A DNA stretch of 32,000 bases from Horticoccus luteus (lineage in GTDB: Bacteria > Verrucomicrobiota > Verrucomicrobiia > Opitutales > Opitutaceae), in assembly GCF_019464535.1 (NCBI RefSeq), contig NZ_CP080507.1, positions 2,070,001 to 2,102,000 on the forward strand. Reading direction: 5' to 3'. Of this stretch, positions 1,693 to 23,144 are shown in pieces; position 1 is the first letter of the stretch; each line of letters opens with the position of its first letter. Below the pieces are notes generated by a model. That model saw nothing but the letters and a program-made list of their open reading frames with translations. It did not search any database and had not been told where the DNA came from. The position numbers and the translations under genes are program-made.

Positions 1693-4119
1693 ATGCTCGC
1701 TGATTTCCGCGCCGCCGTCCGCCAGCTCGCCAAGTGCCCCGGCTTCACCGCCGTCGCCGTCCTCACCCTCGCGCTCTGCATCGGAGCCAACAGCGCCATT
1801 TTCTCGGTTCTCAACGCGATCCTCCTCAAGCCCTACCCGTGGCCCGAATCCGAGCAGCTCGTTTACGCCAACAACACCTACCCGCTCATGGGTCTGCCCG
1901 ACGCCGGCGTGTCGATTCCCGACTACCTCGACCGCCGCACCGCGAAATCCTTCGTCGACGGCGCGATCTATTCCGGCACCTCCGTCAATCTCGCCGCCGA
2001 AGGCACCGCCCCCGAACGCATCAACGCCCTTTCCGCTTCGCCTTCCCTCTTTCCGCTCCTTCGCGTTCCCCCGCTCCTCGGGCGCACGTTCACGGAAAAC
2101 GAAACCGATCCCGGCGCGCCCCGCTCCGCCGTGCTCAGCTACGATCTCTGGCAAAACCGCTTCGGCGGTGACCGCGCCATCATCGGCCGCGACATCCGGC
2201 TCAACGGCGAACCCGTCACCGTCGTCGGCGTGATGCCGCCCGGCTTCTATTTTCCCAGCCCGCGCACGCAGCTCTGGATTCCCTTTCGCATTACGCCCGC
2301 GCAGCGCACCGACGACGAGCGCGGCACCGAATTTTCCAACTTCATCGGCCGCCTCAAGCCCGGCGTCTCCCTCGCGCAAGCCCAGGCCGAACTCGACGCC
2401 CTGCAATCCGCGCTCGCCGCGCGCCTCCCCGCCCTCGCGCCGTTTTGGAAGTCGTCCGGCTTCGCGCCCCACGTCATCGGCTTTCTCGATTTCAACGTCT
2501 CCGGCGTGCGCGCCATGCTCTGGTTCGTGCAGGCCGGCGTCGTCGCCGCGCTGCTCATCGGCTGCGCGAATGTCGCCAGCCTCCTCCTCGCTCGCGCCAT
2601 GAGCCGCGAACGCGAACTCGCCATCCGCGCCGCCCTCGGCGCCTCCCGCCGCCGCCTCGTGCAATTGCTCCTCACCGAGAGCGTTGTCCTCTTCCTCGCC
2701 GGCGGCGCGCTCGGCCTCGTCGTCGCGTTGTGGGGCATCAGCGCCCTCAACCACCTCGGCCTCGATGCCATGCCCCGCGGTTACAACGTCGCGCTCGATG
2801 CCCGGGTGTTTGTCTTCACCCTCGTCTGCGCGCTCGCCAGCGGCCTCGCCTTCGGCGCCTTCCCCGCGTGGCAGGCCGCCAGCGGTCGCGCCGTCGATGC
2901 GCTCAAGGAAGCCGGCACCCGCGCCACCGCCAGCCGCCGCCACCTCTGGCTGCGCAGCGGCCTCGTCGTCGCGGAGATCGCGCTCTCCCTCATGCTCGTG
3001 GCCACCGCCGCGCTCCTCGTGCGCAGCTTCGCGCGCCTTCAGAACGTCAACCCCGGCTTCAACCCCGCCCACGTCCTCACCGCCCAACTCGCGTTGCCCG
3101 CCACGAAATACCCTACGCCTGAAAAACAGGCCGCCTTCGCCGACGCCGTGCTCGCCCAAATCCGCGCCCTTCCCGGCGTCACCGCGGCCGGCCTCACCAC
3201 CACGTTGCCTTTCTCCAACACCAACAGCCAGAGCTCCTACAACATCGTCGGCTACACGCCTCCCGCCGGCCAGCCGCAGCCGCACGGCCAGGTGCGGCAG
3301 GTCACGCCCGGGTATTTTGCCAGCCTCGGCATCCCCCTGCTGCGCGGCCGCCTCATCGATGAACGCGATACCGCGGCCCGCGCCAACGTCGTCGTCATCG
3401 ACCACTTCCTTGCCGACCGCTACTTCGCCCATCGCGATCCCGTCGGCGCCCATCTCAAAGATGACGATGGCACCAAGGACTGGGAGATCGTCGGAGTCGT
3501 CGGCACCATCAAAAATGCCAACCTCGACCAGCCCACCGCCAAGGAAACGCTCTATTATTCCTTCGCCCAATCTCCCGCGCGCAACGTCGCCCTCACCGTC
3601 AAAACCGCGCGCGACCCCGCGACGCTTATCGCGCCGCTGCGCCAGACCGTGCTCGCGCTCGACCCCGAGCAACCGCTGTTCGACGTGAAACTCATGACCG
3701 AGCGGATCGACGAAGCGCTGGTGCGCCGCCGCGCCCCCATGCTCCTCATCGGCATCTTCGCCACCGTCGCGCTCCTCCTCGCCGCGCTCGGGGTCTACGG
3801 CGTGCTCGCGTTTGCCGTCGGCCAGCGCACCCCCGAGATCGGCGTCCGCATGGCGCTCGGCGCCCAGCGCGGCGACATTCTCCGCCTGATCCTGCGCCAA
3901 GGCACGACGCTCATCGCCGTCGGCCTCGCGCTCGGCCTCGCCGGCTATCTGGCCGTGAGCCGCCTGCTCGGCCAGCTCCTCTACGACGTCGCGCCGACGG
4001 ATCCCTTGACCCTTCTCCTCGCCCCCGCGCTCCTCGCCGCCGTCGCCCTGCTCGCCAGTTTTCTCCCCGCCCGGCGCGCGACCAAAGTCGATCCGTTGAT
4101 CGCGCTCCGCTCCGAGTAG
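1693..4119 (+). CDS. ADOP-type duplicated FtsX/MacB-like ABC permease (808 aa), no ATPase domain
   Basis: ATG at 1693. N-terminal family signature [39 protein letters not shown]. There are two modules, each a large soluble domain followed by an FtsX-type TM bundle ([28 protein letters not shown] and [14 protein letters not shown]). C-terminal [17 protein letters not shown]. Confidence 0.9.
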
Positions 4120-4324
4120 CCCGCGCCTCATCCGCCGCCTCCATCCCATTCATGGGACCGCCCCGTTTCACTTTCGCTCTCAACGCCCCGCACCGCGTGC
4201 GGTCCGCAAATTTTATCTATCGATTGATTAGCTACTAACGCGCCTCGCGCGAATCCGGCATCGCGCCTGCAAGGAAGTTCCCCGCCGACGCCCGTCGCGT
4301 CCGCCTCGTCCAACTGCCCCTCCC

Positions 4325-6838
4325 ATGTTTCTCGAAAGCTTTGCCCAAGACGTCCGCGTCGGTCTCCGCGTGCTCGTCAAAGAAAAGGGCTTCTGCGCCC
4401 TCGCCGCTGGCGTGCTCGCGCTCGGCATCGCCGCCGTCGCCACCCAGTTTGCCGTCGTCGACGGCGTGCTCCTCCGCGGTTTCGCGTTCCACGATCCCGA
4501 GCAACTCACCGACGTCCAACTCGTCGACCCCACCAATTTTTCGCCGTCGAATTTCAACTCGCGCGTCACCACCGCCGACTTCGCCGAGCTCAAGGAGCAG
4601 CAGCGGTCCTTCTCCGCGTTCGTCGCTTATCTCAACGGCTCCACGGTCAACCTCACCTACAACGGCCATCCGCAACGTCTCCAAGGCGGCTACATCACCT
4701 ACGATTTCTTCCGCGCCCTCGGCGTCGCCCCGTCGCTCGGCCGCGATTTTCTGCCGGAGGACGATCGGCCCGGCGTCACGAAAGCCGTCATCCTGGGCGA
4801 TGCCCTTTGGAAACGCGATTTCGGCGGCGACCCCGGCGTCATCGGCCAGACCGTCCGCGTCAATGGCCGCGCTGGCGTGATCGTCGGCGTCATGCCGCCC
4901 AAGTTCGCGTTTCCCGCCAACGAGCAGCTCTGGATTCCCGTCAACACCGAGTTCCCCGTGCGCCCGCGGAACGATCGCAACATCAACTTCGTCTCCATCA
5001 TCGGCCGCCTGAAGCCCGGTGTTTCCCTCGCCGCCGCCAACGCCGAGATGATGACGCTCGCCCGGCACTTTTCCGTCACGTATCCGGAGAACAAACAGTT
5101 CAGCCTCGGCTGGGTGCGCCCGCTCATCGGCGCCTTCACCGGCCCCCAACTCTCCGGCCTTCTCTACACGATGCTGGCGTTCTGCCTCGGCGTCCTGCTC
5201 ATCGCCTGCGTCAACGTCATGAACATGCAGTTCGCGCGCGCCACCTTGCGCGCGAAAGAGCTCGCGGTCCGCTCCTCACTCGGCGCCACGCGCATCCGCC
5301 TCATCCGCCAGATGCTCACCGAGAGCCTGCTCCTCGCCGCCATCGGCGCCGTCGTCGGCATCGCGCTCGCCGCGTGGAGCATCGAGTGGGTGGACCGCGC
5401 CGTGCACAACCTCAACAACCCCATCCCGGCCTGGATGACGTTTCACCTCGATCTGCCTGTGCTCGTGTGCGTCGTCGGAGCCACGGTCTTCGCCGCCGTT
5501 ATCTCCGGTCTGCTCCCCGCGCTCATGGCCTCGCGCGCCAACGCCGGTGAAGTCCTCAAGGAATCCGGCCGCGGCAACACCGGCCGCCTCACCCGGGTCG
5601 TCACCAAAGGCCTCGTCGTCTTCCAAATCGTCGTCACGTGCATCCTGCTCATCGGCTCCCTCCTCCAGCTCCAGTCCATCCTCCGCCAGCAACGCACCGA
5701 CTACGGTTACGATACCTCCAGCGTCCTCTCCGCCCGCCTCGGGCTGATGGAAGGCGACTACCCCACCAACGACTCCCGCCTTCTCTTCTACGACAAGCTG
5801 CTCCGTGAACTCCGCGCCACCTCCGGCGTCGAATCCGCCGCCTTCACGAACCGTTTCCAAATGGTCTTCGCCGGCAACGGCACCATCGAAATCGAGGGCC
5901 GCGAATATAAAACCGATCAAGACCGCCCGCGCGCCAATTTCGAAAACGTCACCGACGGCTACTTCGCCACCCTCGGCCAGCGCCTCCTCGCCGGCCGCGA
6001 TTTCACGATGGACGACACCGATCCGAAAAACCCCGTCGCCATCGTCAACACCACCTTCGCGCAAAAATTCTTCGGCCACGAAAGCCCGCTCGGCCGCCGC
6101 TTCCGCCCCGTCGGAGGCAACGGCACCATCTTCGACCCCTGGCGCACCATCGTCGGCGTCGTCTCCGATGTGCGGATGCTCCCGCCCTTCAACAATCCCA
6201 ACCTCACCGACAACACCGGTTTCTACACCCCCTTCAACAGCTTCATCTACGGCGACGGCCAGCCCGCCATCAACGGCCTCCAGTTTGCCACGATCGTCGT
6301 GAAACCCCGCGGTGGTGGCCGCCCTGAAGCGTTCGACGCCGCCCTTCGCCGCGCCGTCAACCGCATCGACCCCAACCTGCCGCTCTACTTCGTCGGCACG
6401 CCGAAAACCAACATCGATGCCCAGCTCTCGGGACCGCGCGTCATCGCACTCATGTTCACCGTGTTTGGCGCCATCGCGATCATCCTCGCCTCAGTCGGCC
6501 TCTACGGCGTGACGTCTTTTTCCGTCAACCAACGCACCCAGGAATTCGGCATCCGCATGGCGCTCGGCGCCGACCACCGCACCATCCTTCGCATGGTTCT
6601 GCGCCAGGGCGCCGCCCAGATCGGGCTCGGCCTCGCGCTCGGGATTCTCCTCGCCCTCGCGATCGCCCTCATCGCGCGCGACGGCATCACGAATTTCCTC
6701 TTCCAGATCAGCCCGCACGATCCGCTGACCTACACCGCCGTCGCCCTGCTCCTCGCCGGCGTCTCCTTGCTCGCGACCCTCATCCCCGCCCGCCGCGCCA
6801 CCCGCGTCGATCCCATGGTCGCCCTCCGCGCGGAATAA
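4325..6838 (+). CDS. ADOP-like duplicated FtsX/MacB-like ABC permease (837 aa), most divergent member of the array
   Basis: ATG at 4325. Divergent N-terminus MFLESFAQDVRVGLRVLVKEKGF followed by a TM segment. First FtsX box ACVNVMNMQFARATLRAKELAVRSSLGA, second box RTQEFGIRMALGA, C-terminal PARRATRVDPMVALRAE. Two large soluble domains sit between the TM bundles. Confidence 0.88.
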   Translation: MFLESFAQDVRVGLRVLVKEKGFCALAAGVLALGIAAVATQFAVVDGVLLRGFAFHDPEQLTDVQLVDPTNFSPSNFNSRVTTADFAELKEQQRSFSAFVAYLNGSTVNLTYNGHPQRLQGGYITYDFFRALGVAPSLGRDFLPEDDRPGVTKAVILGDALWKRDFGGDPGVIGQTVRVNGRAGVIVGVMPPKFAFPANEQLWIPVNTEFPVRPRNDRNINFVSIIGRLKPGVSLAAANAEMMTLARHFSVTYPENKQFSLGWVRPLIGAFTGPQLSGLLYTMLAFCLGVLLIACVNVMNMQFARATLRAKELAVRSSLGATRIRLIRQMLTESLLLAAIGAVVGIALAAWSIEWVDRAVHNLNNPIPAWMTFHLDLPVLVCVVGATVFAAVISGLLPALMASRANAGEVLKESGRGNTGRLTRVVTKGLVVFQIVVTCILLIGSLLQLQSILRQQRTDYGYDTSSVLSARLGLMEGDYPTNDSRLLFYDKLLRELRATSGVESAAFTNRFQMVFAGNGTIEIEGREYKTDQDRPRANFENVTDGYFATLGQRLLAGRDFTMDDTDPKNPVAIVNTTFAQKFFGHESPLGRRFRPVGGNGTIFDPWRTIVGVVSDVRMLPPFNNPNLTDNTGFYTPFNSFIYGDGQPAINGLQFATIVVKPRGGGRPEAFDAALRRAVNRIDPNLPLYFVGTPKTNIDAQLSGPRVIALMFTVFGAIAIILASVGLYGVTSFSVNQRTQEFGIRMALGADHRTILRMVLRQGAAQIGLGLALGILLALAIALIARDGITNFLFQISPHDPLTYTAVALLLAGVSLLATLIPARRATRVDPMVALRAE

Positions 6839-6987: not shown

Positions 6988-9396
6988 ATGCGTCACACCC
7001 TTCGCATCCTCGCCAAATCCCCCGGTTTCTCCCTCGTCGCCATCCTCGCCCTCGCCCTCGGCATCGGCGCCAACACCGCCCTCTTCAGCGTCACCGACGC
7101 CGTCTTCCTTCGCCCGCTGCCGTTCGCTCAACCTGCGCAGCTCGTGCGTCTCGCGTCCACCGATGCGCTCCACGGTTTCGATCGCGCCCCGTTTTCCCTC
7201 CCGCGATTTGAGGCCGTGCGCGAAAACCAGCAGGTTTTCCGCGACCTCGCCTGCGGCATTTTCACCGCCTTCACTCTCACCGGCCGGGGAGATCCCGTCC
7301 AAGTGCAGGGCTTCATGGCCTCGCAGGACTACCTGCCCACGCTCGGCCTCCAACCGCTTTTCGGCCGCAATTTTTCCGCCGCGGAAGACCGGCCCGGCGG
7401 CGCCCCCGTCGTCCTCGTCAGCTACAACTTTTGGCGCCAAACCTTGCACGCCGACCCCGCCGCTCTCGGCCAGTCGCTCACGATCGACGGCCAGCCTCAC
7501 ACCGTCATCGGCATCCTGCCTCCGGCGCTCTCGAGCATTCCGTTCAACCAAGTGGAGCTCTGGACGCCCCGGCCCGCCGAAGTGCCGTTTCTTCAACCTT
7601 CGCAACTCGAGGGCGGAGGCTTCTTCTTCCAAGTCATCGCCCGTTTGAAGCCCGGCGTCTCGCTCGCGCAGGCGCAGGAAAACATGAACGTCATCGCCGC
7701 CGCGTATCGCGCGGCGCACCCGTCGAATTCCGACGCTCCCAGCCACCTCGACGCGATTCCCCTCCTCGATGATCTCGTGGGCGATCAGCGCTCGACCTAC
7801 GCCCTCCTGTTCGGCGCCGTCGGGTGCGTCCTGCTCATCGCCTGTGCCAACGTCGCCAATCTCCTCCTCGCGCGCTTCTCCGCGCGCCGCAAGGAGCTCG
7901 CGCTGCGGCTGGCCCTCGGCGCCACCCGTGGGCACATCGTGCGCCAATTGTTGCTGGAAAGCACCGTCGTCGCCCTGCTCGGCGGCGCGCTCGGCGTCCT
8001 GCTGGCCCGCTGGGGCGTCGATGCGTTTGTCCGCCTTGGCCAGAATTTCATTCCGCGCTCCCAGGAAATCTCCGTCCATCTGCCCGCGCTGCTGTTCACC
8101 CTCGCCCTCGCACTCCTGACCGGCATCGGTATGGGACTCTTCCCCGCGCTCCATGCCGCCCGCACGCCGAGCGGTGACGCGTTGAAAGACGCCGGGCGCG
8201 GCTCCTCCGGCGGCCCCGCGCAAGGTCGCCTGCGGAGCGCCCTGCTCGTCGCCGAAATCGCCCTCTCGCTCGTTCTCCTCATCGCCGCCAGCCTCCTGCT
8301 CACCAGCTTCTCGCGGCTCCAACGCGTGTCGCCCGGCTTCGATCCCGATCACGTGTTCATCGGCTTCGTCAATCTCCCGCCCGCGAAATATCCCAACGCC
8401 ACCGCACTCTCCAATTTCTACCTGCACCTGCAGCAACGGCTCGCCGTGCTGCCCGGCGCGAAAGCCGTCGCGCTGGCCGATTCCCCGCCCCTGAGCGGCA
8501 ACAGCGGACCCGCGCCCATCGCCGTCGTCGGCCATCCCGTCCCGCCGCTCAGCGAACGCCCCAACGCGCTCCGCCATCTCGTCACGCCCAACAGTTTCGC
8601 CACCCTGCGCATTCCCTTGCTCCGCGGTCGCGATTTCAACGAACGCGATCTTCCCGGCAGCCCGGAAACCGTCATCATTAACGAAGCCTTCGCCCGGCAG
8701 TTTTTCCCCGGCGAAGATCCGCTGGGGCGCAAGATCATCACCGGCATGGCGCAGAAAACCGCCGAGATCGTCGGCGTTGTGGGCGACACCCACACCCTCG
8801 ACCTCACCACGCCACCGCGCGCCGAATATTTCCTCCCCGCGCTGCAACGCGGCGAAACGTTCACCTCGATCCTCGTGCGCACGGAGGGCGATCCCGCGGG
8901 CTTCGCCGCGTCGGTTCGCGCCGCGCTGCACGAAGTGGACGCCGACCAGCCACTGATCGGCGGCCAGCCGTTCGCGCAACTGATCGCGCGCACCTTCGCG
9001 GCCCGCCGTCTCGTCATGCTGCTGCTCGGCGCCTTCGCCGGGCTCGCGCTCATTCTCGCCGGCCTCGGCGTTTACAGCGTGATGGCCTATGTCGTCACCC
9101 AGCGGACAAATGAAATCGGCATCCGCATGGCGCTGGGCGCGACTCCTGGCGGCGTGCAGCGCCTCGTGCTCAAGCAGGGTTTGAGGCTCGTGGCGCTCGG
9201 CGTGTGCCTCGGGCTCAGCGGTGCACTCCTGCTCACCCAGTTCATGGCCAAAGTGCTGTTCGCTGTGCAGGCCGCCGATCCTCTGATTTACGCCGCCGCC
9301 GCCGCCTTCCTCGCCGTCGTGGCCGCTCTCGCGTGCTATTTCCCCGCCCGCCGCGCCACCCGCGTCGACCCGCTGATCGCCCTCCGCGCCGAATAA
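6988..9396 (+). CDS. ADOP-type duplicated FtsX/MacB-like ABC permease (802 aa)
   Basis: ATG at 6988. N-terminus MRHTLRILAKSPGFSLVAILALALGIGANTALFSV. Boxes ACANVANLLLARFSARRKELALRLALGA and RTNEIGIRMALGA. C-terminal [17 protein letters not shown]. Confidence 0.9.
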   Translation: MRHTLRILAKSPGFSLVAILALALGIGANTALFSVTDAVFLRPLPFAQPAQLVRLASTDALHGFDRAPFSLPRFEAVRENQQVFRDLACGIFTAFTLTGRGDPVQVQGFMASQDYLPTLGLQPLFGRNFSAAEDRPGGAPVVLVSYNFWRQTLHADPAALGQSLTIDGQPHTVIGILPPALSSIPFNQVELWTPRPAEVPFLQPSQLEGGGFFFQVIARLKPGVSLAQAQENMNVIAAAYRAAHPSNSDAPSHLDAIPLLDDLVGDQRSTYALLFGAVGCVLLIACANVANLLLARFSARRKELALRLALGATRGHIVRQLLLESTVVALLGGALGVLLARWGVDAFVRLGQNFIPRSQEISVHLPALLFTLALALLTGIGMGLFPALHAARTPSGDALKDAGRGSSGGPAQGRLRSALLVAEIALSLVLLIAASLLLTSFSRLQRVSPGFDPDHVFIGFVNLPPAKYPNATALSNFYLHLQQRLAVLPGAKAVALADSPPLSGNSGPAPIAVVGHPVPPLSERPNALRHLVTPNSFATLRIPLLRGRDFNERDLPGSPETVIINEAFARQFFPGEDPLGRKIITGMAQKTAEIVGVVGDTHTLDLTTPPRAEYFLPALQRGETFTSILVRTEGDPAGFAASVRAALHEVDADQPLIGGQPFAQLIARTFAARRLVMLLLGAFAGLALILAGLGVYSVMAYVVTQRTNEIGIRMALGATPGGVQRLVLKQGLRLVALGVCLGLSGALLLTQFMAKVLFAVQAADPLIYAAAAAFLAVVAALACYFPARRATRVDPLIALRAE

Positions 9397-9435
9397 TTTT
9401 CCGACCGGTCCAACCTGTTCGCTTAACTCTTCCTC

Positions 9436-11829
9436 ATGCTTTCCGATCTCCGTTACGCGTTGCGCGCGCTTGCCAAATCCCCCGGTTTTGCCGCCGTCGC
9501 CATTCTCACCCTCGCGCTCGGCATCGGCGCGTGCACCGCGATTTTCTCCGTCGTCAACAGCGTGCTGCTGCGGCCGCTCGCCTACGATGAGTCGGACCAG
9601 CTTGTCATCGTCCGCGAGACCGCGCTCCCGCAGTTTCCCGAATTCTCCGTTGCCCCGGGCAACTACTACGCGTGGCTCGCGCAGGCGCAAAGCTTCGAAA
9701 ATCTCGCGGCGTTCCGCAGCGCGCCCTATAACCTCACCGGCCGCGGCGAACCTCAGCGGCTCGCTGCCAAACGCGTCACCGCAAACTACCTCGCCACGCT
9801 GCGCGTCCACCTAGCCCTCGGCCGCGACTTCACCGCCGAGGAGGATGCTCCCGGCGCCAAGGCCGATGTCGCCCTCCTCACGTGGGGCTTGTGGCAGCGG
9901 CTGTTCGGCGGCCGACCCGACGCCCTCGGTGCCACGCTTCAACTCGACGGCACGCCGTTCACCATCATCGGCATCCTCCCGCAGGATTTCCAAGCCGACT
10001 CGAAAACCGAGCTGCTTACGCCGGCGGCGCTTCCCACTGACGAACGCGAGCAGCACGGCGGCCACTACCTCAGCGTGGTCGGCCGGTTGAAACCCGGGAC
10101 CACCGTCGATCAAGCGCGGGCCGATCTCACTCTCATCGCGCACCGGCTCGAACAGCAATTTCCCGACACGAACAAGAACTGGGGCGTCAAACTCGCGCCG
10201 ATGCTCGACTACGCCGTGGCCGACATCCGCCCGGTGCTCTTCGCGCTGCTCGGCGCGGTCGGTTTCCTCCTGCTCATCGCGTGCGCGAATGTCGCCAACC
10301 TTCTCCTCACCCGCGCCACCGCCCGGGCGAAGGAAATTTCCATTCGTGCCGCTCTCGGCGCCGGCCGCGGTCGCATCGTGCGCCAGCTGCTCGTCGAAAG
10401 CATTGTCCTCGCCGCCCTCGGCGCCGCGCTCGGCCTCCTGATCGCGCAGTGGGGGATGAGCGCGCTCCTGGCTTTCGCGCCCGACTCTCTTCCACGCGTG
10501 CACGAGATCGCGCTCGACGGACGCGCCCTCGGCTTTACTTGCGCGCTCGCGCTCCTCACCGGCCTCGGTTTCGGCCTCGTGCCCGCGCTCCAGGCGTCGC
10601 GCGTCAATCTCACCGAAACGCTCAAAGACGCCGGCCGCGGTTCCAGCGAAGGCCGGCACCGTCAGCGCCTCCGCAGTTCACTCGTCGTCGCCGAAGTCGC
10701 CATCGCGCTCGTGTTGCTCGTCGGCGCCGGCCTGCTCATCCGCAGCTTCGCCCGCCTCCAAAACGTCGACCCCGGTTTTCAACCGCACAACGGCTGGACG
10801 ATCAACCTCTCGCTCCCGCCCAAGAAATACGCCACGCCCGCGCAACAAGCTGCATTCGCCCAGCAGGCCGTCGACGCGCTCGCGGCCATTCCCGGCGTGC
10901 AGTCCGTCGGCGCGTCGCACGTCGTGCCGTTCACCGGCAGCGACTACATTCTCAGTTACACGATCGCCGGTCGCCCCGTGGATCCGAACTCCAGCGCGAA
11001 CTACTACGCGACCACGCCCGGCTACTTCAAGGCGATGGGCATTCCGCTCCTGCGCGGACGGTTTTTCAACGCCCACGACGACGCCACCGCGCCGCATGTT
11101 GCGATCATCAACGAATCCTTCGCGAAAAAAATCTTCGCCGGCGAAGACCCTTTGGGTAAGCGCCTCAACATCACCAACGGCCCGGAAACGTGGCGCGAGA
11201 TCGTCGGCATCGTGGGCGACGTGAAGCACTACGGGCTCGACCGCGCCTCGCCGCTGCAGACCTACGAGCCGTTCGCGCAGCAACCGTTGCCGTTTCTCAC
11301 GTTCGTGGTGCGCACGAGCGGCCCCATCCCCGGCCTGCCGGCGGCGATCCGCAACGCGATCTATTCCGTCGACAAGGAACAGCCCGTCGCCCGCATCCGT
11401 GCGCTCGACCAACTACTCGCGGAGTCCGTCGCGCGCCGGCGCTTCACGATGTTTCTCTTCGCCGTCTTCTCCGCTGTCGCGCTCCTGCTCGCGATGATCG
11501 GCATCTACGGCGTGATGGCTTACACCGTCACGCAACGCACCGGTGAGATCGGCATTCGGATGGCGCTCGGCGCGCAGCCGGGCGACGTCCTTCGCCTCGT
11601 CCTCGCGCAAGGAGGCCGGCTCGTCGCGCTCGGCCTCGCCGCCGGTCTTGTCGGCTCGCTGCTGCTGACGCATTTCCTCGCCTCGATGCTCTTCGGCGTG
11701 TCCGCGCACGACCCGCTGACGTTTGCCGTCATCGCCACCACGATCGCCGCGATCGCCGCCCTCGCCTGCTGGATTCCCGCCCGGCGCGCCACTCGCGTAG
11801 ACCCGCTGATCGCTCTCCGCGCGGATTAA
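9436..11829 (+). CDS. ADOP-type duplicated FtsX/MacB-like ABC permease (797 aa)
   Basis: ATG at 9436, only 39 nt after the preceding stop. N-terminus MLSDLRYALRALAKSPGFAAVAILTLALGIGACTAIFSV. Boxes ACANVANLLLTRATARAKEISIRAALGA and RTGEIGIRMALGA. C-terminal [17 protein letters not shown]. Confidence 0.9.
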   Translation: MLSDLRYALRALAKSPGFAAVAILTLALGIGACTAIFSVVNSVLLRPLAYDESDQLVIVRETALPQFPEFSVAPGNYYAWLAQAQSFENLAAFRSAPYNLTGRGEPQRLAAKRVTANYLATLRVHLALGRDFTAEEDAPGAKADVALLTWGLWQRLFGGRPDALGATLQLDGTPFTIIGILPQDFQADSKTELLTPAALPTDEREQHGGHYLSVVGRLKPGTTVDQARADLTLIAHRLEQQFPDTNKNWGVKLAPMLDYAVADIRPVLFALLGAVGFLLLIACANVANLLLTRATARAKEISIRAALGAGRGRIVRQLLVESIVLAALGAALGLLIAQWGMSALLAFAPDSLPRVHEIALDGRALGFTCALALLTGLGFGLVPALQASRVNLTETLKDAGRGSSEGRHRQRLRSSLVVAEVAIALVLLVGAGLLIRSFARLQNVDPGFQPHNGWTINLSLPPKKYATPAQQAAFAQQAVDALAAIPGVQSVGASHVVPFTGSDYILSYTIAGRPVDPNSSANYYATTPGYFKAMGIPLLRGRFFNAHDDATAPHVAIINESFAKKIFAGEDPLGKRLNITNGPETWREIVGIVGDVKHYGLDRASPLQTYEPFAQQPLPFLTFVVRTSGPIPGLPAAIRNAIYSVDKEQPVARIRALDQLLAESVARRRFTMFLFAVFSAVALLLAMIGIYGVMAYTVTQRTGEIGIRMALGAQPGDVLRLVLAQGGRLVALGLAAGLVGSLLLTHFLASMLFGVSAHDPLTFAVIATTIAAIAALACWIPARRATRVDPLIALRAD

Positions 11830-11968
11830 CTCACCGGCCGATTACGACTCGGGCCGGGTATGCGCCGGCCGTGCAAACACGCTCAACCAGCTGCGCCGGT
11901 GCGCACTCGTTCACCCGGCACGTCTGGCCCCGCTCAACCTCCCCCAGCCAGTCGTCGCGCCTGCTGCA

Positions 11969-13084
11969 TTATTTCAACGCGAGATACGGCTCGATCGGCC
12001 GAAAACCCGCGACGGCGCACACGCGGTCCCGCTCGCTTTCGCTGGCAAACAGATACACCGCGTAACCGCCAAAACCGCCGCCGCAATACTTCCACGCGAG
12101 CGGCTGCACGCCATCCGGCAGAATTCCCGCCGGCCCGTCGGCCTCGCCAGGCAATGGCGCCATGCCCTCGGCGCGCTGCACCGCACTCGATTGCCGCACC
12201 GCCGCGGCCAGCAGCGCCAGATCGCTGCGCCACACCGCGTCCCTCGCCGTCGCGCCCGCCCGCGCAATCGCGGCATAGTCGCGCTCGTTCTTGCAGATGC
12301 CCGGCGTGTCGTGCGGAGCGCCCGTCCAATACAGCGCCATCCTCCCGCGAAGAAATTCACCGTTGTGCTTCAACTCGAGCACCGGCCGCGGCCCGCTGCG
12401 CCACACGCACAAGCCGCTTTCCGCGATGATCACCGGGTCCTGCCAACCCACACCGAGATCGAGTTCCGCGTTCACGCCATCGCGGCCATTAAGCAGCGCC
12501 CACGCGCCGCTGCCTCCGAGACCGGCGTTGCGTTCGTAAGGCCAGTCGCGCAACGACACTGTCGGCGAAATCGCGCAATTCACCACAAACGCGCCGTCTC
12601 GCGCGTAACGCGGCACATCCAGCCAGCCGCCGGCGAAGTCCACCCGCAGCGGTGCCGCCTCGGGCGCTCGGATGAAGCGCACAATCTGCGTCGTCGAAAT
12701 CGGCGTGAACTGCGGCGGCGTCTTCGGCAGCACCACGTAACGCGCGCCCACTTCCGCGCACAGCGCTTTCTTCAACGGCGTGTATTTGTCGTCTTCCGTG
12801 ACCGCGAGAATGTCGGGCCGCAGACGCAAAAAATCCGCGCGGAAATCGATCCCTTCTTCCGTGCCCGTGCCGACCACCACATCGTCCACCATGCGCAGCC
12901 CCGCGAGCAACGCCTGCTTGTGTTCGTCCGGCAGCGAGCTGCGCCGGTGCTTGTGCAGCCACAGCACGTCGGTCGACGCGAACGACACCGTGAGGTGGTC
13001 CCCCAACGCGCGTGCCTCGCGGAAAAACTGCAGGTGCCCGGCGTGCACAATGTCGTAACAACCTGAAACAAATACGCGGATCAT
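11969..13084 (-). CDS. Bifunctional TagD-like cytidylyltransferase (N-terminal) / compact GHMP-like sugar kinase (C-terminal)
   Basis: The N-terminal ~135 aa align by eye with glycerol-3-phosphate cytidylyltransferase: RVFVSGCYDIVHAGHLQFFREA carries the HxGH motif and ISTTQIV lies near the domain end. The C-terminal ~235 aa carry GHMP-type motifs: RVDFAGGWLDVP, the NAGLGGSGA glycine loop and KYCGGGFGGY. I place the start at ATG 13084 (MIRVFVSG), where homology begins. The ORF stays open upstream to 13288, with another ATG at 13189, but that stretch is low-complexity. Confidence 0.75.
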   Translation of the reverse strand: MIRVFVSGCYDIVHAGHLQFFREARALGDHLTVSFASTDVLWLHKHRRSSLPDEHKQALLAGLRMVDDVVVGTGTEEGIDFRADFLRLRPDILAVTEDDKYTPLKKALCAEVGARYVVLPKTPPQFTPISTTQIVRFIRAPEAAPLRVDFAGGWLDVPRYARDGAFVVNCAISPTVSLRDWPYERNAGLGGSGAWALLNGRDGVNAELDLGVGWQDPVIIAESGLCVWRSGPRPVLELKHNGEFLRGRMALYWTGAPHDTPGICKNERDYAAIARAGATARDAVWRSDLALLAAAVRQSSAVQRAEGMAPLPGEADGPAGILPDGVQPLAWKYCGGGFGGYAVYLFASESERDRVCAVAGFRPIEPYLALK

Positions 13085-13314
13085 CGCCCGCAGCGCACCG
13101 ACAGAACCCGCCGCCGTCAAACACACTCCGCTCCGCAACTCAGCGCCGGCCACCGCGCCGCCGATCGGCGTCCCGATTCCGGGAATCATTCGTTCCACCG
13201 GCGGAAATTTGCCGCAGCCCCGGCCGGGTCCCGAATATTTTAAGCTTCTGATGCCGAGTAACCTAAAGCTCCGCGCTCGCGCTGGCACGCGCTTTGCAAA
13301 GAGTCACGCGCACG

Positions 13315-13980
13315 ATGATTCAACTCCGCCACATCGATCGCGTTTATCCGCTCAAAGGCGGACCCTTCTACGCGCTGCGCCACATCGACCTTGCGATCAA
13401 TGAGGGCGATTTCCTCTCGATCATGGGCCCGTCCGGATCCGGCAAGTCCACGCTCCTGCACCTCCTCGGCCTCCACGACAACGCTTGGACGGGCGAATAT
13501 CACTTCGACGGCGTGGCCGTGCACGCGCTCGACAAAAAGAAGCGCTTCGAACTCCAAAAAAAGAACATCGGCTTCGTCTTTCAAAGCTACCACCTCCTCG
13601 ACGATCTCACCGTTTACGAGAATCTCGAAATTCCTCTTTCGTATCGCGACATGCCGAAGAAAGAGCGCGAGAGCATCGTGTGCGACGCGCTGGACCGTTT
13701 TCACATCGTCGGCAAACGCGACCTTTATCCCAGCCAGCTCTCGGGCGGTCAGCAGCAACTCGTGGGCATCGCTCGCGCCCTCGTCGCCCGTCCGCGCCTG
13801 ATTCTCGCCGACGAACCCACCGGCAATCTGCACTCCGATCAAGGTCGCGAAATCATGGAGCTCTTCCGCCGCCTCAATCAGGAGGAAGGTGTGACGATCG
13901 TGCAGGTGACGCACTCCAACGAAAACGCCACCTACGGCACGCGCGTCGTGCGGCTCGCCGACGGCGTCATCGTCCCCTGA
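13315..13980 (+). CDS. Stand-alone ABC transporter ATP-binding protein, MacB/LolD family
   Basis: Walker A GPSGSGKST, Q-loop FQS, signature LSGGQQQ, Walker B LILADEPT, H-loop VTHS. ATG at 13315 (MIQLRHIDRVY) is preferred. An in-frame TTG at 13294 is the alternative start. Confidence 0.9.
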   Translation: MIQLRHIDRVYPLKGGPFYALRHIDLAINEGDFLSIMGPSGSGKSTLLHLLGLHDNAWTGEYHFDGVAVHALDKKKRFELQKKNIGFVFQSYHLLDDLTVYENLEIPLSYRDMPKKERESIVCDALDRFHIVGKRDLYPSQLSGGQQQLVGIARALVARPRLILADEPTGNLHSDQGREIMELFRRLNQEEGVTIVQVTHSNENATYGTRVVRLADGVIVP

Positions 13981-14151
13981 ACCTGTGGCCCCGCCCAGCC
14001 AGCTTTGTGTTGTGTGTGTTGTGTCGCTCCTCGCCGTGAAGCCGGTGTGCGGGTCCGCTGAACCGGCGCCCGGCTCCGCGCGCGAGGGCAAATTTTTCCG
14101 ACTCTCCCCGCGTCTTACTTCGCCGGCCGCCGGCACCTTCCTTTCTTTGCA

Positions 14152-15675
14152 ATGTTGACCGCCCGCACCGCGCTTCTCGTTTTCGTCGCCACCTTCACGT
14201 TCGCCGCCGCCTCGCCGGCGCAATCGCCGGCACCCGCCGCGCCCGCCGGTTCCACGCTTACCCTTCAGCAGGCGATCGCGCAGGCATTGCGCCAAAACCG
14301 CACCATCAAGGTCCAGGCCTACGATCCCGCCATCTCGCGCGCCAACGTGCTCACCGCCTACGGCCGCTTCGATCCCGCGCTCACTTTTCGCCGCTCCTAC
14401 AGCGAGGATAACGTCCCGTTCTCCGCCAACCCCGTCGTGAATCAGTTGACGAAAACCGATGACTACAGCCTCACGCTCGACGGCCTCTCGCCCATCGGCA
14501 CGCAATACAGTCTTGGAGCCAGCGCGGAAAACCTGCGCGGCACGTTCAACGGCTTCGCGGATAACTACGTCACGTTCGGCGGACTCACCGTCACGCAACC
14601 CTTGCTGCGCGGCTTTGGATTCGGCGCGAATCTCTACGATCTGCGCGTCGCCCGCGCCGACCGCGGCATCGCCGATTGGACTTTTCGTCAGACCGTCATC
14701 GATACGATCACCAGCGTCATCTACGCCTATAACAACCTCATCAACGCGCAGCAACAGTTGCGCGTCGCCCAGCGCTCCCGCGAACTCGCCGCCCAGCTCG
14801 TGGGCGAGAACGAAAAACGCTTTCAGGTCGGCAGCATGTCCGCGAGCGACGTCACCGAAGCCCGCGCCCGCACCGCCACCCGCGAAGAAGCCGTCATCGT
14901 CGCGGAACAAGGAGTGCGCGATTCCGACAACGCCCTCCGCCGCCTGATCGGCGAAAAAGATTTTCCGCTCAACGGTCCGCTCCTCACGGTCGAGACGCCT
15001 GACGTGCCGGCGATCACCGTCGACCCCGTGGCCGACTATCGCCGCGCCCTCGATCTCCGGCCCGACTACCGGAGTTCCCAACTCGGCGTGGCCAAGCGCG
15101 CCGCGAATCGCAGCTATGCGCGCAACCAACTTCTGCCCCGCGTGGATTTCGTCGGCAGCTACGGCTACAACGGTCTGGATCCCTCCTTCGCCGCGAGCCG
15201 CCATATGGTGGCCGACCGCGATCGCGTTTCCTACTCGGCGGGCGTCGTTGTCAGCGTGCCCCTCACCTTCGCCGACGGCCGCGGCCGCGCCCGCGCCGCC
15301 CGCCTCCAGCTCGCCCAGGCCGAAGCCGACCTCGACCGACTGGAGCAGGACATCGCACTCAACATCGCCCACGCCGCCGCCGACATCGACACCTCCCGCC
15401 GCCGCGTCGCCGCCAATCAGACGGCCTACGATCTCGCGAAACAAGCGCTCGACGCCGAGCTCAAGAAACTGCGCGCCGGCCAAAGCTCGACGTTCTTCGT
15501 GCTGAACCTGCAGGAAGAGTTGTCCTACGTCGAAACCGCTCTCTCCGCCGCCCTCGCCGCGCAACGCCGCGCCGTCGCCGCCTATGATCGCGAGATCGGC
15601 ACCACGCTCGAGCGCTACCACGTCACCCTCACGCCATCCGCCGACCGCCCCGCGACGACCACGTTGGCGCACTAA
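14152..15675 (+). CDS. TolC-family outer membrane efflux protein (OMF)
   Basis: 507 aa. Signal peptide MLTARTALLVFVATFTFAAASPAQS. Typical OEP N-terminal box TLQQAIAQALRQNRTIKV...YDPAISRANV and a second repeat (DYRRALDLRPDYRSSQLGVAKRAA). The alpha-helical, Ala/Leu/Gln/Arg-rich composition is characteristic of TolC. Confidence 0.88.
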   Translation: MLTARTALLVFVATFTFAAASPAQSPAPAAPAGSTLTLQQAIAQALRQNRTIKVQAYDPAISRANVLTAYGRFDPALTFRRSYSEDNVPFSANPVVNQLTKTDDYSLTLDGLSPIGTQYSLGASAENLRGTFNGFADNYVTFGGLTVTQPLLRGFGFGANLYDLRVARADRGIADWTFRQTVIDTITSVIYAYNNLINAQQQLRVAQRSRELAAQLVGENEKRFQVGSMSASDVTEARARTATREEAVIVAEQGVRDSDNALRRLIGEKDFPLNGPLLTVETPDVPAITVDPVADYRRALDLRPDYRSSQLGVAKRAANRSYARNQLLPRVDFVGSYGYNGLDPSFAASRHMVADRDRVSYSAGVVVSVPLTFADGRGRARAARLQLAQAEADLDRLEQDIALNIAHAAADIDTSRRRVAANQTAYDLAKQALDAELKKLRAGQSSTFFVLNLQEELSYVETALSAALAAQRRAVAAYDREIGTTLERYHVTLTPSADRPATTTLAH

Positions 15676-15912
15676 ACGCCCCTCGGTCGCTCCGCGCTCC
15701 GTCCTCGTCGCAGGCTAACGCGCCAGCATTTCGTCTTCCTGCCGCGGTCGACTCGTCGCAGCGGACCGCACTGGCGTTTGGTCGGAAACCTCCGCGCGTT
15801 TACCGTCCGTCACCGATCGGCGCCCCGCACGCGACGCAATGTCCTGTCGTTTCGTGCAACAAATTCGGCTTGGCTCGCGTCAGAAAACCCTCTGGTTCCA
15901 TTCCCACCTCCC

Positions 15913-16846: not shown

Positions 16847-17078
16847 GCGCCGTGGCGCTCGCCGGGCGCTTTCACCGCGAACGCTCTAGCGTTGGCCGCC
16901 CTCTCTGCCGAGGTGTTTTTCTCGTCCCTCGAGATCCTCATCATTTCTCAGAGCCGTCCATGCCGCAGGCATTTGTGTCCGGGACCGATTTCGAACAGCT
17001 ACTGCTTCCAGACGCATGTTCATATTTCGACCATGCGACCGCGGCGCCACCAGCCGCCTTTACCTGCCCTTCCACTCT

Positions 17079-17441: not shown

Positions 17442-17503
17442 AAGGTTACCCGGGCAGCGTAACCTCTCTGCCTTGCGTTTCAATCCCCGCGTGGACGCCC
17501 CGG

Positions 17504-23124: not shown

Positions 23125-23144
23125 GCGTGCAGCGGCTGGCCGGC

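What the first reader, a model, noticed from the sequence alone, without database searches (positions are those of the whole stretch)
13315..15675. Permease-less, adaptor-less MacB-type ATPase + TolC pair parked next to the NBD-less permease array
Seen: a 221-aa ABC ATPase with all canonical motifs is followed 171 nt later by a TolC-family gene. No cognate 4-TM permease gene and no HlyD/MacA-type membrane-fusion protein gene occur anywhere in the 32 kb. The only permeases nearby are the five ATPase-less ADOP genes, which end 1.5 kb upstream. Established: MacB/LolCDE-type ATPases act as dimers on FtsX-type permease dimers. Canonical MacAB-TolC needs the MacA adaptor to reach TolC. The ADOP family was named for lacking an adjacent ATPase. 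Inference: this ATPase could be the shared motor for several ADOP permeases, at 2 NBD per pseudo-dimeric ADOP. Export could reach this TolC through an adaptor encoded elsewhere or through the doubled periplasmic domains. If correct, this gives a functional handle on a large uncharacterised transporter family.
Basis: partly seen in the sequence, partly recalled or inferred. Interest (0 to 1): 0.7.

Follow-up and report, generated by a model that had tools for sequence, protein, structure and literature searches.

The report
Second ATPase of an ADOP efflux pump
The "lonely" ATPase–TolC pair is one half of a MacAB-TolC-like efflux system whose adaptor and second ATPase lie just off the window's left edge; its permeases are almost certainly the "orphan" ADOP genes next door, and the parts share one sigma-54 control signal.

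Summary
A 221-aa ABC ATPase (13315-13980) sits 171 nt before a TolC gene (14152-15675). Five ADOP permease genes end 1.5 kb upstream, and the window holds no adaptor (MFP) and no 4-TM permease.

The "adaptor-less" reading is a window-edge effect. Horticoccus luteus encodes the orthologous MFP (QYM80661), four protein numbers before ADOP2 (QYM80665). In a near-identical strain this MFP is followed by a second ATPase, "NBD_A".

I examined 80 genomes that carry orthologues of the window ATPase ("NBD_B"). In 75, another part of the same cassette lies within 10 kb: MFP, NBD_A, ADOP arrays, NBD_B, then TolC (Opitutales) or a sigma-54 regulator plus kinase (Acidobacteriota). NBD_B is often embedded in ADOP arrays with gaps under 30 nt.

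In the window, a perfect sigma-54 promoter with an upstream palindrome precedes NBD_B. The same composite element precedes ADOP3, and also the MFP gene in the near-identical strain.

Best reading: a modular, sigma-54-regulated tripartite pump with one conserved engine (MFP, NBD_A, NBD_B, TolC) and many variable ADOP permeases. It remains open whether NBD_A and NBD_B form a heterodimer. This is a new variant of a known kind, and it makes the ADOP "orphan" problem testable.

The parts
4..1554 (+). ADOP1, a tandem MacB-type permease. Its 5' end is cut by the window edge, leaving the C-terminal 516 aa.
   Evidence: TIGR03434 398 bits over model positions 331-803; FtsX plus MacB_PCD. By accession order it is probably QYM80664.
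1693..4119 (+). ADOP2 (808 aa, QYM80665)
   Evidence: TIGR03434 928 bits against cutoff 622; 8 predicted TM helices; accession.
4144..4157 (+). Upstream activator palindrome TCCCATTCATGGGA in the ADOP2-ADOP3 spacer
   Evidence: One of only two TCCC-N6-GGGA sites in the window, against 0.41 expected. It lies 113 nt (palindrome start to the GG) before a -24/-12 core, the same spacing as at NBD_B.
4256..4270 (+). Sigma-54-type -24/-12 core CGGCATCGCGCCTGC, 54 nt before the ADOP3 start codon
   Evidence: GG and GC are correctly spaced, and the site fits the composite UAS+core pattern that gave 0 hits in 10 shuffles of the loci.
4325..6838 (+). ADOP3 (837 aa, QYM80666)
   Evidence: TIGR03434 797 bits; accession.
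6988..9396 (+). ADOP4 (802 aa, QYM80667)
   Evidence: TIGR03434 930 bits; accession.
9436..11829 (+). ADOP5 (797 aa, QYM80668). It has 8 TM helices, two periplasmic core domains and two coupling helices (aa 298-306 and 702-710).
   Evidence: TIGR03434 1009 bits. AlphaFold2 model with pLDDT 83.5 and pTM 0.69. Best fold matches are E. coli YbbP 9GE6 (E 1e-20), then MacB, Spr0695 and LolCDE.
11969..13084 (-). Intervening opposite-strand gene (cytidylyl/adenylyltransferase family, 371 aa, QYM80796). Probably not part of the system.
   Evidence: PF01467 hit; accession. It sits in the same place in L002 and L006 only.
13171..13184 (+). Upstream activator palindrome TCCCGATTCCGGGA
   Evidence: It aligns with the same palindrome upstream of MFP genes (L082-L085) and of NBD_B genes (L025, L027).
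13283..13297 (+). Sigma-54 promoter TGGCACGCGCTTTGC, with 17 nt between it and the ATPase ATG
   Evidence: The only zero-mismatch match to TGGCAC-N5-TTGC in the window. The core and leader are near-identical before the H. luteus-type MFP gene in L082.
13315..13980 (+). NBD_B: stand-alone type VII (MacB/LolD/FtsE-class) ABC ATPase, 221 aa, QYM80669
13981..14151 (+). 171-nt spacer with no sigma-54 core of its own; TolC is probably co-transcribed with NBD_B.
   Evidence: Searches found no promoter match. The terminator-like hairpin at 14122-14134 is within chance expectation.
14152..15675 (+). TolC-family outer-membrane channel, 507 aa, QYM80670. It has a signal peptide and no lipobox cysteine.
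   Evidence: Two PF02321 repeats. TIGR01844 132 bits, below cutoff 225. Orthologues follow NBD_B in 18 of 26 scorable Opitutales loci.

Best explanation
The ATPase (NBD_B) and the TolC are two parts of one sigma-54-regulated, MacAB-TolC-like tripartite efflux system. The inner-membrane permeases of that system are the ADOP proteins.

The likely full cluster in Horticoccus luteus is: MFP - NBD_A - (one more gene, probably an ADOP) - ADOP1-5 - [unrelated minus-strand gene] - NBD_B - TolC. The first two or three genes lie just left of the window.

Each ADOP is a single-chain pseudo-dimer of two MacB-type halves (8 TM helices, two periplasmic domains, two coupling helices). It therefore needs two NBDs.

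Proposed mechanism (inferred from MacB, LolCDE and YbbAP). ATP binding and hydrolysis in the two NBDs is transmitted through the coupling helices and stalk helices to the periplasmic domains. These push a periplasmic or outer-leaflet substrate into the MFP-TolC duct.

The conserved engine (MFP, NBD_A, NBD_B, TolC) is shared by several fast-evolving ADOP paralogues, which supply substrate specificity. Expression is driven by an NtrC-type activator acting on TCCC-N6-GGGA sites upstream of -24/-12 promoters.

Shown: gene content, conserved linkage, shared promoters, fold. Inferred: physical assembly, sharing of the engine, substrate. Open: whether NBD_A and NBD_B act as a heterodimer on each ADOP (my estimate about 0.5) or as separate homodimers.
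For: 1. Neighbourhoods of 80 NBD_B orthologues, one per genome assembly.
- 75 of 80 have at least one of ADOP, MFP, NBD_A, TolC or the sigma-54 regulator within 10 kb.
- There are 105 full-length ADOPs in 1.31 Mb.
- NBD_B sits inside ADOP arrays with gaps of 6-30 nt in L047, L054, L035, L024 and L028.
- All parts are together in L027 and L011.
- A tight MFP-NBD_A-NBD_B-TolC operon occurs in L013 and L017.

2. Neighbouring permeases are true ADOPs: 6 of 7 sampled pass the TIGR03434 cutoff.

3. The H. luteus MFP orthologue is QYM80661. Window genes run QYM80665-80671 in map order, and WP numbers agree. L082, whose MFP is 416/417 identical, shows MFP followed after 146 nt by NBD_A.

4. MFP-centred loci L083-L087 read (RR54-HK-)MFP-NBD_A-ADOP x2-3. 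In L084 the NBD_B-TolC pair lies about 9 kb away.

5. The shared regulatory element is in the window before NBD_B and before ADOP3, both with a 113-nt offset, and in L082 before the MFP. In the 80 loci there are 27 composite sites against 0 in each of 10 shuffles. Of these, 25 lie upstream of NBD_B, TolC, MFP or ADOP genes.

6. The engine is far better conserved than the permeases. Cross-phylum median identity is NBD_A 77%, NBD_B 67%, MFP 50% and ADOP 36%.

7. The ADOP5 model has 8 TM helices and two coupling helices, and its top fold hits are YbbP and MacB. YbbAP is 2 NBD: 1 fused permease (PMC12646458).

8. The two coupling-helix regions are each conserved across 90 ADOPs. They do not split into classes according to which NBD gene is adjacent.
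Against: - No physical or functional data exist; everything rests on gene linkage, promoters and fold.
- In the window itself NBD_B is separated from the ADOP array by an opposite-strand gene.
- Contiguity of MFP-NBD_A with the window is inferred from accession order plus a short contig of a near-identical strain. It was not read directly from the H. luteus sequence.
- 34 of 80 loci show no ADOP within 10 kb, including many Acidobacteriota loci with MFP-NBD_A-NBD_B-RR54-HK only.
- I could not measure the genomic background density of ADOPs.
- TolC linkage is confined to Verrucomicrobiota.
- The composite promoter was not found in the Acidobacteriota loci.
- The presence of NBD_A means NBD_B need not be the ADOP motor at all.
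Confidence: 0.78

Rival explanations
1. Two separate motors. NBD_A homodimers power the ADOPs encoded in the MFP operon. NBD_B homodimers power the other ('orphan') ADOPs. Both use the same MFP and TolC.
For: Both NBDs have fully canonical catalytic motifs, and neither has a degenerate site. The known fused type VII permease YbbP uses a homodimer of one ATPase. MFP-NBD_A-ADOP operons look self-sufficient. NBD_B is often the only ATPase inside long ADOP arrays such as L047, L054 and L035.
Against: ADOPs next to NBD_A and ADOPs next to NBD_B show the same coupling-helix signatures. NBD_A and NBD_B genes overlap by 4 nt in at least 9 loci and sit in one tight operon with MFP and TolC in L013 and L017. 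Both are single genes per cluster, and both are under unusually strong constraint.
Confidence: 0.3
2. NBD_B is mainly a signalling component. Like Bce-type modules, it would report transporter activity to the adjacent sigma-54 two-component system rather than drive export.
For: In non-Opitutales loci the gene immediately downstream of NBD_B is the sigma-54 response regulator in 20 of 49 scorable cases, usually followed by a histidine kinase. BceAB-BceRS is a precedent for type VII ABC systems wired to a kinase.
Against: In BceAB the kinase contacts the permease, not a free ATPase. NBD_B keeps every catalytic motif. In Opitutales it is paired with TolC instead of the regulator. Operon adjacency to a regulator is equally expected for a regulated structural gene.
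Confidence: 0.08
3. The literal first-stage reading: an adaptor-less pump in which the doubled ADOP periplasmic domains reach TolC directly, with this ATPase as the sole motor.
For: No MFP gene and no second ATPase gene occur within the 32-kb window.
Against: The orthologous MFP exists in H. luteus about four genes upstream of ADOP2, with NBD_A next to it and the same promoter. An MFP is present in 43 of the 80 related loci.
Confidence: 0.03
4. Unrelated housekeeping ATPase (a LolD, FtsE or ordinary MacB partner) that happens to lie near ADOP genes.
For: Its best family hits are DarD, LolD, the MacB NBD and FtsE.
Against: All those hits are below the curated cutoffs: LolD 190/308, FtsE 182/265, DarD 240/375. 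No LolC/E or FtsX gene is adjacent in any of the 80 loci. Linkage to ADOP, MFP, NBD_A and TolC is conserved across two phyla, and the promoter is shared with ADOP3 and MFP.
Confidence: 0.03

Closest known systems
MacAB-TolC tripartite efflux pump (E. coli; PDB 5NIK, 5LIL, 5GKO)
   Same: The permease has the type VII ABC fold with a periplasmic core domain. The system includes a HlyD-family adaptor, a TolC-family exit duct and a MacB-class NBD. MacB chains are the best sequence matches in the PDB for ADOP5 and among the best for NBD_B, behind Spr0694 and MJ0796.
   Different: MacB is a homodimer with the NBD fused to each 4-TM half. Here the two halves are fused into one 8-TM chain and the NBDs are separate genes. 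There are two NBD paralogues. Five to six permease paralogues share one adaptor and one TolC. The genes are split into at least three transcription units under sigma-54 control.
[quoted passage not shown]
   Same: A single-chain, internally duplicated permease with two periplasmic domains and two coupling helices binds two copies of a separately encoded ATPase. YbbP is the best full-length fold match to the ADOP5 model.
   Different: YbbP has 10 TM helices, with two linker helices. ADOP has 8. phmmer at E 1e-5 did not detect YbbP. YbbAP uses one ATPase type, no MFP or TolC, and partners with the TesA hydrolase.
DarBCD darobactin exporter (NCBIfam NF038007/8/10)
   Same: It combines a separate ATPase (DarD), a fused roughly 780-aa double-FtsX permease (DarB) and an adaptor (DarC). 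DarD is the top NCBIfam hit for both NBD_B and NBD_A. DarC and DarB give weak hits to the MFP and to ADOP3.
   Different: All scores are far below the equivalog cutoffs. There is no darA or darE, only a single ATPase type, and no permease arrays.
BceAB-BceRS modules (PDB 7TCG, 8G4C)
   Same: A type VII ABC transporter is genetically and functionally tied to a two-component system. The permease is fused and the ATPase is separate.
   Different: BceB has one extracellular domain and 10 TM helices. The Bce regulator is OmpR-type, not sigma-54-dependent. Bce systems are Gram-positive and lack an MFP or TolC.
Shared-ATPase ABC systems (MsiK of Streptomyces; group II ECF transporters)
   Same: The concept is the same: one energising module serves many membrane specificity components encoded elsewhere. 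This comparison rests on my own knowledge, not on a tool result.
   Different: These are importers with different folds. No type VII or tripartite efflux example has been described in the papers I could search.

Membership tests
ABC ATPase, type VII (MacB/LolD/FtsE) class | PF00005 domain with Walker A, Q-loop, LSGGQ signature, Walker B and H-loop | tested here: met
   All motifs are canonical. The D-loop is GNLH instead of GNLD throughout the NBD_B clade.
ABC ATPase, type VII (MacB/LolD/FtsE) class | Closest relatives are NBDs of FtsX/MacB-type permeases | tested here: met
   Top NCBIfam hits are DarD, LolD, the MacB NBD, FtsE, DevA and YbbA. Top PDB hits are Spr0694, MJ0796, MacB, YtrE, BceA and LolD.
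Named equivalogs LolD / FtsE / DarD | Score at or above the curated NCBIfam cutoff | tested here: not met
   LolD 189.6/307.75, FtsE 181.5/264.85, DarD 240/375.
ADOP family (TIGR03434) | Score at or above 622.3 bits; about 800 aa with two MacB_PCD and two FtsX domains | tested here: met
   The four complete window genes score 797-1009 bits. Six of seven sampled neighbours of NBD_B in other genomes pass the cutoff.
ADOP family (TIGR03434) | 'Orphan': no adjacent or fused ABC ATPase gene (from the family description, recalled from my own knowledge) | tested here: not met
   An ATPase lies 1.5 kb downstream in the window. NBD_B or NBD_A genes directly flank ADOPs in many loci.
MacAB-TolC-type tripartite efflux pump | MacB-fold permease with a periplasmic core domain | tested here: met
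   Pfam MacB_PCD plus FtsX; AF2 model and fold search.
MacAB-TolC-type tripartite efflux pump | NBD fused to the permease; homodimer of 4-TM chains (MacB proper) | tested here: not met
   The NBD is a separate gene. The permease is a single 8-TM tandem chain.
MacAB-TolC-type tripartite efflux pump | Cognate HlyD-family periplasmic adaptor | tested here: met
   Not in the window. The H. luteus orthologue QYM80661 maps about four genes upstream of ADOP2. It carries the same sigma-54 promoter in L082. Contiguity is inferred from accession order.
MacAB-TolC-type tripartite efflux pump | TolC-family outer-membrane factor | tested here: met
   Two PF02321 repeats. NBD_B-TolC adjacency is conserved in Opitutales. 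The TIGR01844 score is below cutoff.
MacAB-TolC-type tripartite efflux pump | Physical assembly and ATP-driven export | not testable with these tools
   Needs biochemistry or multimer modelling.
YbbAP-type fused type VII transporter | Internally duplicated permease with two periplasmic domains and two coupling helices, plus a separate ATPase | tested here: met
   literature.
YbbAP-type fused type VII transporter | 10 TM helices with two linker helices; TesA partner | tested here: not met
   8 TM helices by hydropathy and in the AF2 model. No TesA-like gene was seen in the window.
Sigma-54-dependent promoter | -24 GG / -12 GC core matching TGGCAC-N5-TTGC, with an upstream activator site | tested here: met
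   Perfect core at 13283-13297 and palindrome at 13171-13184. A second composite site lies at 4144-4270. Both are conserved in relatives.
Sigma-54-dependent promoter | Cognate enhancer-binding protein and RpoN dependence | not tested
   No RR54 gene is in the window. RR54-HK pairs are in the cluster in relatives. The H. luteus regulator was not located.

The most novel reading that the evidence does not exclude
ADOP systems are modular tripartite pumps. A single, slowly evolving engine consists of a heterodimer of two dedicated NBD paralogues (NBD_A with D-loop GNLD, NBD_B with GNLH), one MFP and one TolC. This engine docks interchangeably onto many fast-evolving single-chain ADOP permeases that set substrate specificity. 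The whole set forms a sigma-54 two-component regulon. It would be the first 'one engine, many permeases' architecture, and the first heterodimeric NBD pair, in type VII ABC or tripartite efflux systems. It would also explain why ADOPs looked like orphans.
Probability: 0.4. Interest if true: 0.8.

Novelty: new variant of a known kind. Interest (0 to 1): 0.6.

Why it matters
ADOPs form very large paralogous families in Acidobacteriota and Verrucomicrobiota, which are dominant soil phyla. They have been annotated since their definition as duplicated 'orphan' permeases of unknown function, and I found essentially no literature on them.

This work identifies a conserved partner set: an adaptor, two ATPases, a TolC or a sigma-54 two-component system, and a recognisable promoter signature. 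That turns an uncharacterised family into a testable efflux system. It names the few genes whose deletion should disable many permeases at once. It also suggests an unusual modular design for envelope exporters.

There is a practical lesson as well. 'Missing partner' calls made from a fixed window are fragile, because here the partner sat only a few kb beyond the edge.

Tried and rejected
- Exact-protein look-ups of the H. luteus MFP (P0225) and ADOP2, meant to read the genome left of the window, found nothing on record. Only a 3.6-kb Logan contig of a near-identical strain (L082) was available.
- A profile search with the five window ADOPs was meant to surface other H. luteus paralogues, including the unknown QYM80663 and QYM80664. 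It returned only ADOP5 among the named hits, so the gene between NBD_A and ADOP1 and the genome-wide ADOP count remain unknown.
- A strict sigma-54 core scan within 250 nt upstream of every labelled gene gave few hits. Two reasons emerged: many promoters lie 300-420 nt upstream behind a small ORF, and the Acidobacteriota loci lack this motif. The composite UAS+core pattern worked instead. A first version of that pattern had the wrong spacing and missed the known sites.
- I looked for two ADOP classes with different coupling helices according to the adjacent NBD type, and found none.
- I looked for a conserved gene, such as a TolC, upstream of the MFP in Acidobacteriota, and found none.
- A regex for ADOP C-terminal relics between NBD_A and NBD_B found nothing. 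Reading the frames by eye showed relics only in L050 and L063.
- Multimer modelling of ADOP with the NBDs was not possible. The structure tool takes single chains, and NBD_A is neither in the window nor among the returned proteins.
- LolD, FtsE and DarD membership was rejected on the curated cutoffs.
Full report
**What is in the window**

The window comes from Horticoccus luteus (Opitutaceae, Verrucomicrobiota). The ATPase is 100% identical to QYM80669/WP_220166183 on a 4.32-Mb contig. Pfam and NCBIfam scans of all plausible ORFs give this map:

| Coordinates | Strand | Gene |
|---|---|---|
| 4-1554 | + | ADOP1, 5'-cut |
| 1693-4119, 4325-6838, 6988-9396, 9436-11829 | + | ADOP2-5, 797-1009 bits on TIGR03434 (cutoff 622) |
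| 11969-13084 | - | cytidylyltransferase-family gene |
| 13315-13980 | + | ATPase |
| 14152-15675 | + | TolC-family gene |
| downstream of 15675 | mixed | cytochrome b562-like, haem-binding-domain protein, PEPCK, a GDSL lipase, a rhamnosidase, TatC, PPDK, PheA, ScpB, IlvD, an aldolase |

The ATPase has every canonical motif. tblastn with an MFP, the second ATPase type, a sigma-54 regulator and a kinase found nothing else in the window.

**What the relatives show**

Orthologues of the ATPase, which I call NBD_B, are unusually conserved. They are 77-86% identical across Opitutales. The next-best matches, at 64-72%, are mostly Acidobacteriota, the classic ADOP-rich phylum, plus some Chthoniobacterales.

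I fetched 80 loci, each from a different assembly, with 10-kb flanks. I labelled genes by BLAST to the window proteins and by Pfam on cluster representatives. One cassette recurs:

MFP (HlyD family, about 420 aa) - NBD_A (a second ATPase, about 45% identical to NBD_B) - [0-2 ADOPs] - NBD_B - [TolC in Opitutales, or an NtrC-type sigma-54 response regulator plus histidine kinase elsewhere] - ADOP arrays.

Counts:
- 75 of 80 loci hold at least one other component within 10 kb.
- TolC follows NBD_B in 18 of 26 scorable Opitutales loci.
- In the other phyla the upstream neighbour is NBD_A in 25 loci and an ADOP in 12.
- In the other phyla the downstream neighbour is the regulator in 20 loci, an ADOP in 10 and the MFP in 9.
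- The loci hold 105 full-length ADOPs in 1.31 Mb.

Telling examples:

| Locus | Gene order |
|---|---|
| L027 | NBD_B-TolC-RR54-HK-MFP-ADOP-NBD_A-ADOP |
| L011 | MFP-NBD_A-ADOP-like-TolC-NBD_B-ADOP x3 |
| L013, L017 | MFP-NBD_A-NBD_B-TolC with gaps of 4-101 nt |
| L047, L054, L035 | NBD_B inside ADOP arrays with gaps under 30 nt |

Six of seven sampled neighbouring permeases pass the ADOP cutoff. For this clade, the statement that ADOPs are never next to an ATPase does not hold.

**The adaptor is just outside the window**

A profile of six Opitutales MFPs retrieved the H. luteus orthologue, P0225 = QYM80661/WP_220166160 (417 aa). GenBank protein numbers in the window ascend in map order on both strands:

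| Gene | GenBank number |
|---|---|
| ADOP2-5 | QYM80665-68 |
| ATPase | QYM80669 |
| TolC | QYM80670 |
| b562 | QYM80671 |
| ScpB | QYM80677 |
| IlvD | QYM80678 |

A few genes are numbered in a separate block (the cytidylyltransferase is 80796 and PheA is 80799). RefSeq WP numbers step by about 2 per gene in the same order: 160 for the MFP, then 168, 170, 172, 174, 183, 185 and 187.

The MFP is therefore about four genes before ADOP2, a few kb left of window position 1. A Logan contig from the same sample that yielded a 100%-identical ATPase contig carries an MFP that is 416/417 identical to H. luteus. There the MFP is followed after 146 nt by a truncated gene 85% identical to NBD_A of L017.

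The likely H. luteus order is: MFP(61)-NBD_A(62)-X(63)-ADOP1(64)-ADOP2..5-[minus-strand gene]-NBD_B-TolC.

MFP-centred loci in relatives agree:
- L083 reads RR54-HK-MFP-NBD_A-ADOP x2.
- L085-87 read RR54-HK-MFP-NBD_A-ADOP x3.
- In L084 (Opitutus sp. ER46), MFP-NBD_A-ADOP x2 lies about 9 kb from an NBD_B-TolC pair.

Contiguity with the window is inferred from numbering, not read from sequence.

**One regulon**

The only zero-mismatch match to the sigma-54 consensus TGGCAC-N5-TTGC in the window is at 13283-13297, with 17 nt between it and the ATPase ATG. The H. luteus-type MFP gene (L082) has TGGCACGCGCCTTGC at the same distance, with a near-identical leader.

An alignment of seven promoter regions was made from NBD_B upstream regions (window, L025, L027) and MFP upstream regions (L082-L085). 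It shows three shared features:
- a palindrome TCCC-N6-GGGA about 100 nt upstream of the core;
- an AT-rich spacer;
- the -24/-12 core.

That palindrome occurs only twice in the window, against 0.41 expected. One copy is at 13171-13184. The other is at 4144-4157, between ADOP2 and ADOP3, where it is followed by the core-like CGGCATCGCGCCTGC at 4256-4270. The palindrome-to-GG distance is 113 nt in both cases.

Across the 80 loci the composite pattern occurs 27 times and 0 times in each of ten shuffles. Of the 27 sites, 25 lie upstream of a system gene on the same strand: NBD_B 12, TolC 5, MFP 5, ADOP 3. All are in Verrucomicrobiota.

This ties ADOP3-5, NBD_B-TolC and MFP-NBD_A to one activator, presumably the RR54 encoded in the cluster in relatives. 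I did not locate the H. luteus regulator.

**Anatomy of the permease**

All four complete ADOPs have 8 hydrophobic segments. An AlphaFold2 model of ADOP5, built on a 101-sequence alignment, has pLDDT 83.5 and pTM 0.69. It shows this layout:
- TM1, periplasmic domain 1, TM2, a short coupling helix (298-306), TM3 and TM4;
- a disordered linker (398-405);
- the same again, with coupling helix 2 at 702-710.

The best fold match over the full length is E. coli YbbP (9GE6, E 1e-20). MacB, Spr0695, LolC/E, HrtB and BceB follow. By sequence the PDB hits are MacB chains.

YbbAP is a 2:1 ATPase:permease complex in which each half contacts one ATPase through its own coupling helix (PMC12646458). YbbP has 10 TM helices, so ADOP is a direct tandem without the two linker helices. 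One ADOP therefore needs two NBDs.

**How it most likely works**

I commit to a MacAB-TolC-like mechanotransmission pump. The ADOP is the inner-membrane unit, two NBDs sit on its cytoplasmic face, the MFP bridges to TolC, and substrates are taken from the periplasm or outer leaflet. This is inferred from the MacB, LolCDE and YbbAP literature.

Cross-phylum median identity is 77% for NBD_A, 67% for NBD_B, 65% for RR54 and 50% for the MFP, against 36% for ADOPs. This fits a constant engine serving many diverging permeases. The cluster alone has 5-6 ADOPs for two NBD genes, one MFP and one TolC.

Whether NBD_A and NBD_B form a heterodimer is open.
- For a heterodimer:
  - Their genes overlap by 4 nt in at least nine loci.
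  - They sit together in tight engine operons.
  - The permease is asymmetric, with two differently conserved coupling regions.
  - ADOPs do not split into A-type and B-type classes.
  - The clade-specific D-loop pair, GNLD in NBD_A and GNLH in NBD_B, could face each other in a dimer; this last point is speculation.
- Against a heterodimer: both NBDs are fully canonical, and the one solved fused homologue uses a homodimer.

I put the heterodimer at about 0.5. The substrate is unknown.

**Comparison and novelty**

The system works like MacAB-TolC but fails two features of MacB proper, the fused NBD and the homodimer of 4-TM chains. It resembles YbbAP in chain architecture but not in TM count or partners. 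DarBCD is the nearest annotated operon type, but all scores are below cutoff.

Full-text searches found only passing mentions of ADOPs. One paper noted an ADOP cluster in Psychroflexus lying beside genes with ATP-binding regions (PMC3914696). I found no description of a dual-NBD MacB-type system or of a shared engine.

I rate it a new variant of a known kind. The 'adaptor-less, permease-less' framing is a window-edge artefact.

**Limits**

- There is no experimental evidence.
- I could not measure the ADOP background density or the genome-wide counts.
- The gene between NBD_A and ADOP1 is unidentified.
- The promoter signature was not found in Acidobacteriota loci.
- TolC linkage is lineage-restricted.

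Noticed in passing
L002 9646-9912, L003 303-521, L005 9728-9961, L006 9705-9956, L007 9207-9404, L009 4167-4436, L018 9651-9917: In the closest relatives the sigma-54 promoter lies 300-420 nt upstream of NBD_B, and a small ORF fills the gap. The ORF encodes 65-90 aa: a signal peptide (MK.(Y)LL..), a Pro/Ala/Ser/Thr-rich low-complexity region, and a conserved C-terminal end ...(R)PAH(L)FM. It is absent before NBD_B in H. luteus. It could be an accessory factor or even a cargo.
   Followed up: partly
L050, L058, L063, L069, L075, L077, L078, L079: the 210-410-nt gap between NBD_A and NBD_B: A conserved small ORF starts right after the NBD_A stop codon. It has the motif (K/R)(H/N)(V/I)D(L/V)xA(I/V)(A/G)(L/I)LL, one predicted TM helix, and is about 60-80 aa long. 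L050 also keeps an ADOP C-terminal relic (…ARVDPVSALRYE*) and L063 keeps 'SALRYE*'. This suggests an ADOP was deleted from between the two ATPase genes.
   Followed up: partly
window 13822-13833 (aa 170-173): The D-loop of this ATPase reads GNLH instead of the usual GNLD. The His is the consensus of the whole NBD_B clade, whereas NBD_A keeps GNLD.
   Followed up: partly
window 13298-13314; L082 1689-1705; L083-L087 MFP upstream regions: Only 17-18 nt separate the -12 element from the start codon, both at NBD_B and at the MFP genes. With a usual sigma-54 start site the leader would be only a few nucleotides long, so the mRNA would be nearly leaderless.
   Followed up: no
window 11969-13084 (-): The opposite-strand gene has an N-terminal cytidylyl/adenylyltransferase domain and about 230 C-terminal residues with no Pfam hit. 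GenBank (371 aa) and RefSeq (406 aa) disagree on its start. It is conserved at this spot in L002 and L006.
   Followed up: no
window 15913-16386 and 16370-16846 (+): A secreted cytochrome b562-like protein and a haem-binding-domain (PF14376) protein overlap by 17 nt directly downstream of TolC. The same pair follows TolC in the near-identical strain (L001). Any link to the pump is unknown.
   Followed up: no
window 1-16000 versus 16001-32000: GC skew is strongly negative (-0.15 to -0.30) across the ADOP array, ATPase and TolC. It is only about 0 to -0.12 across most of the rest of the window (-0.15 at 16-17 kb), although both halves are about 60-70% G+C.
   Followed up: no
window 14008-14028: A GT-rich low-complexity run (GTGTTGTGTGTGTTGTGTCGC) lies in the ATPase-TolC spacer. 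A GC hairpin at 14122-14134 lies just before the TolC start, but it is within chance expectation for terminator-like sites.
   Followed up: no
L083 2739-3122, L085 5597-5956 and 8989-9414: Small PDDEXK_3 and 23S_rRNA_IVP family genes are inserted between RR54 and HK, and between MFP and NBD_A, in some Opitutaceae clusters. They are absent from the H. luteus-type contig L082.
   Followed up: no
one search hit list (P0261-P0379): ADOP5 has full-length homologues at 55-58% identity in Blastocatellia and Pyrinomonadaceae, and up to 78% in unnamed metagenome sequences. This is much higher than the typical 36% between ADOPs of the two phyla, so ADOP5 may be a conserved 'core' permease of the system.
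   Followed up: no
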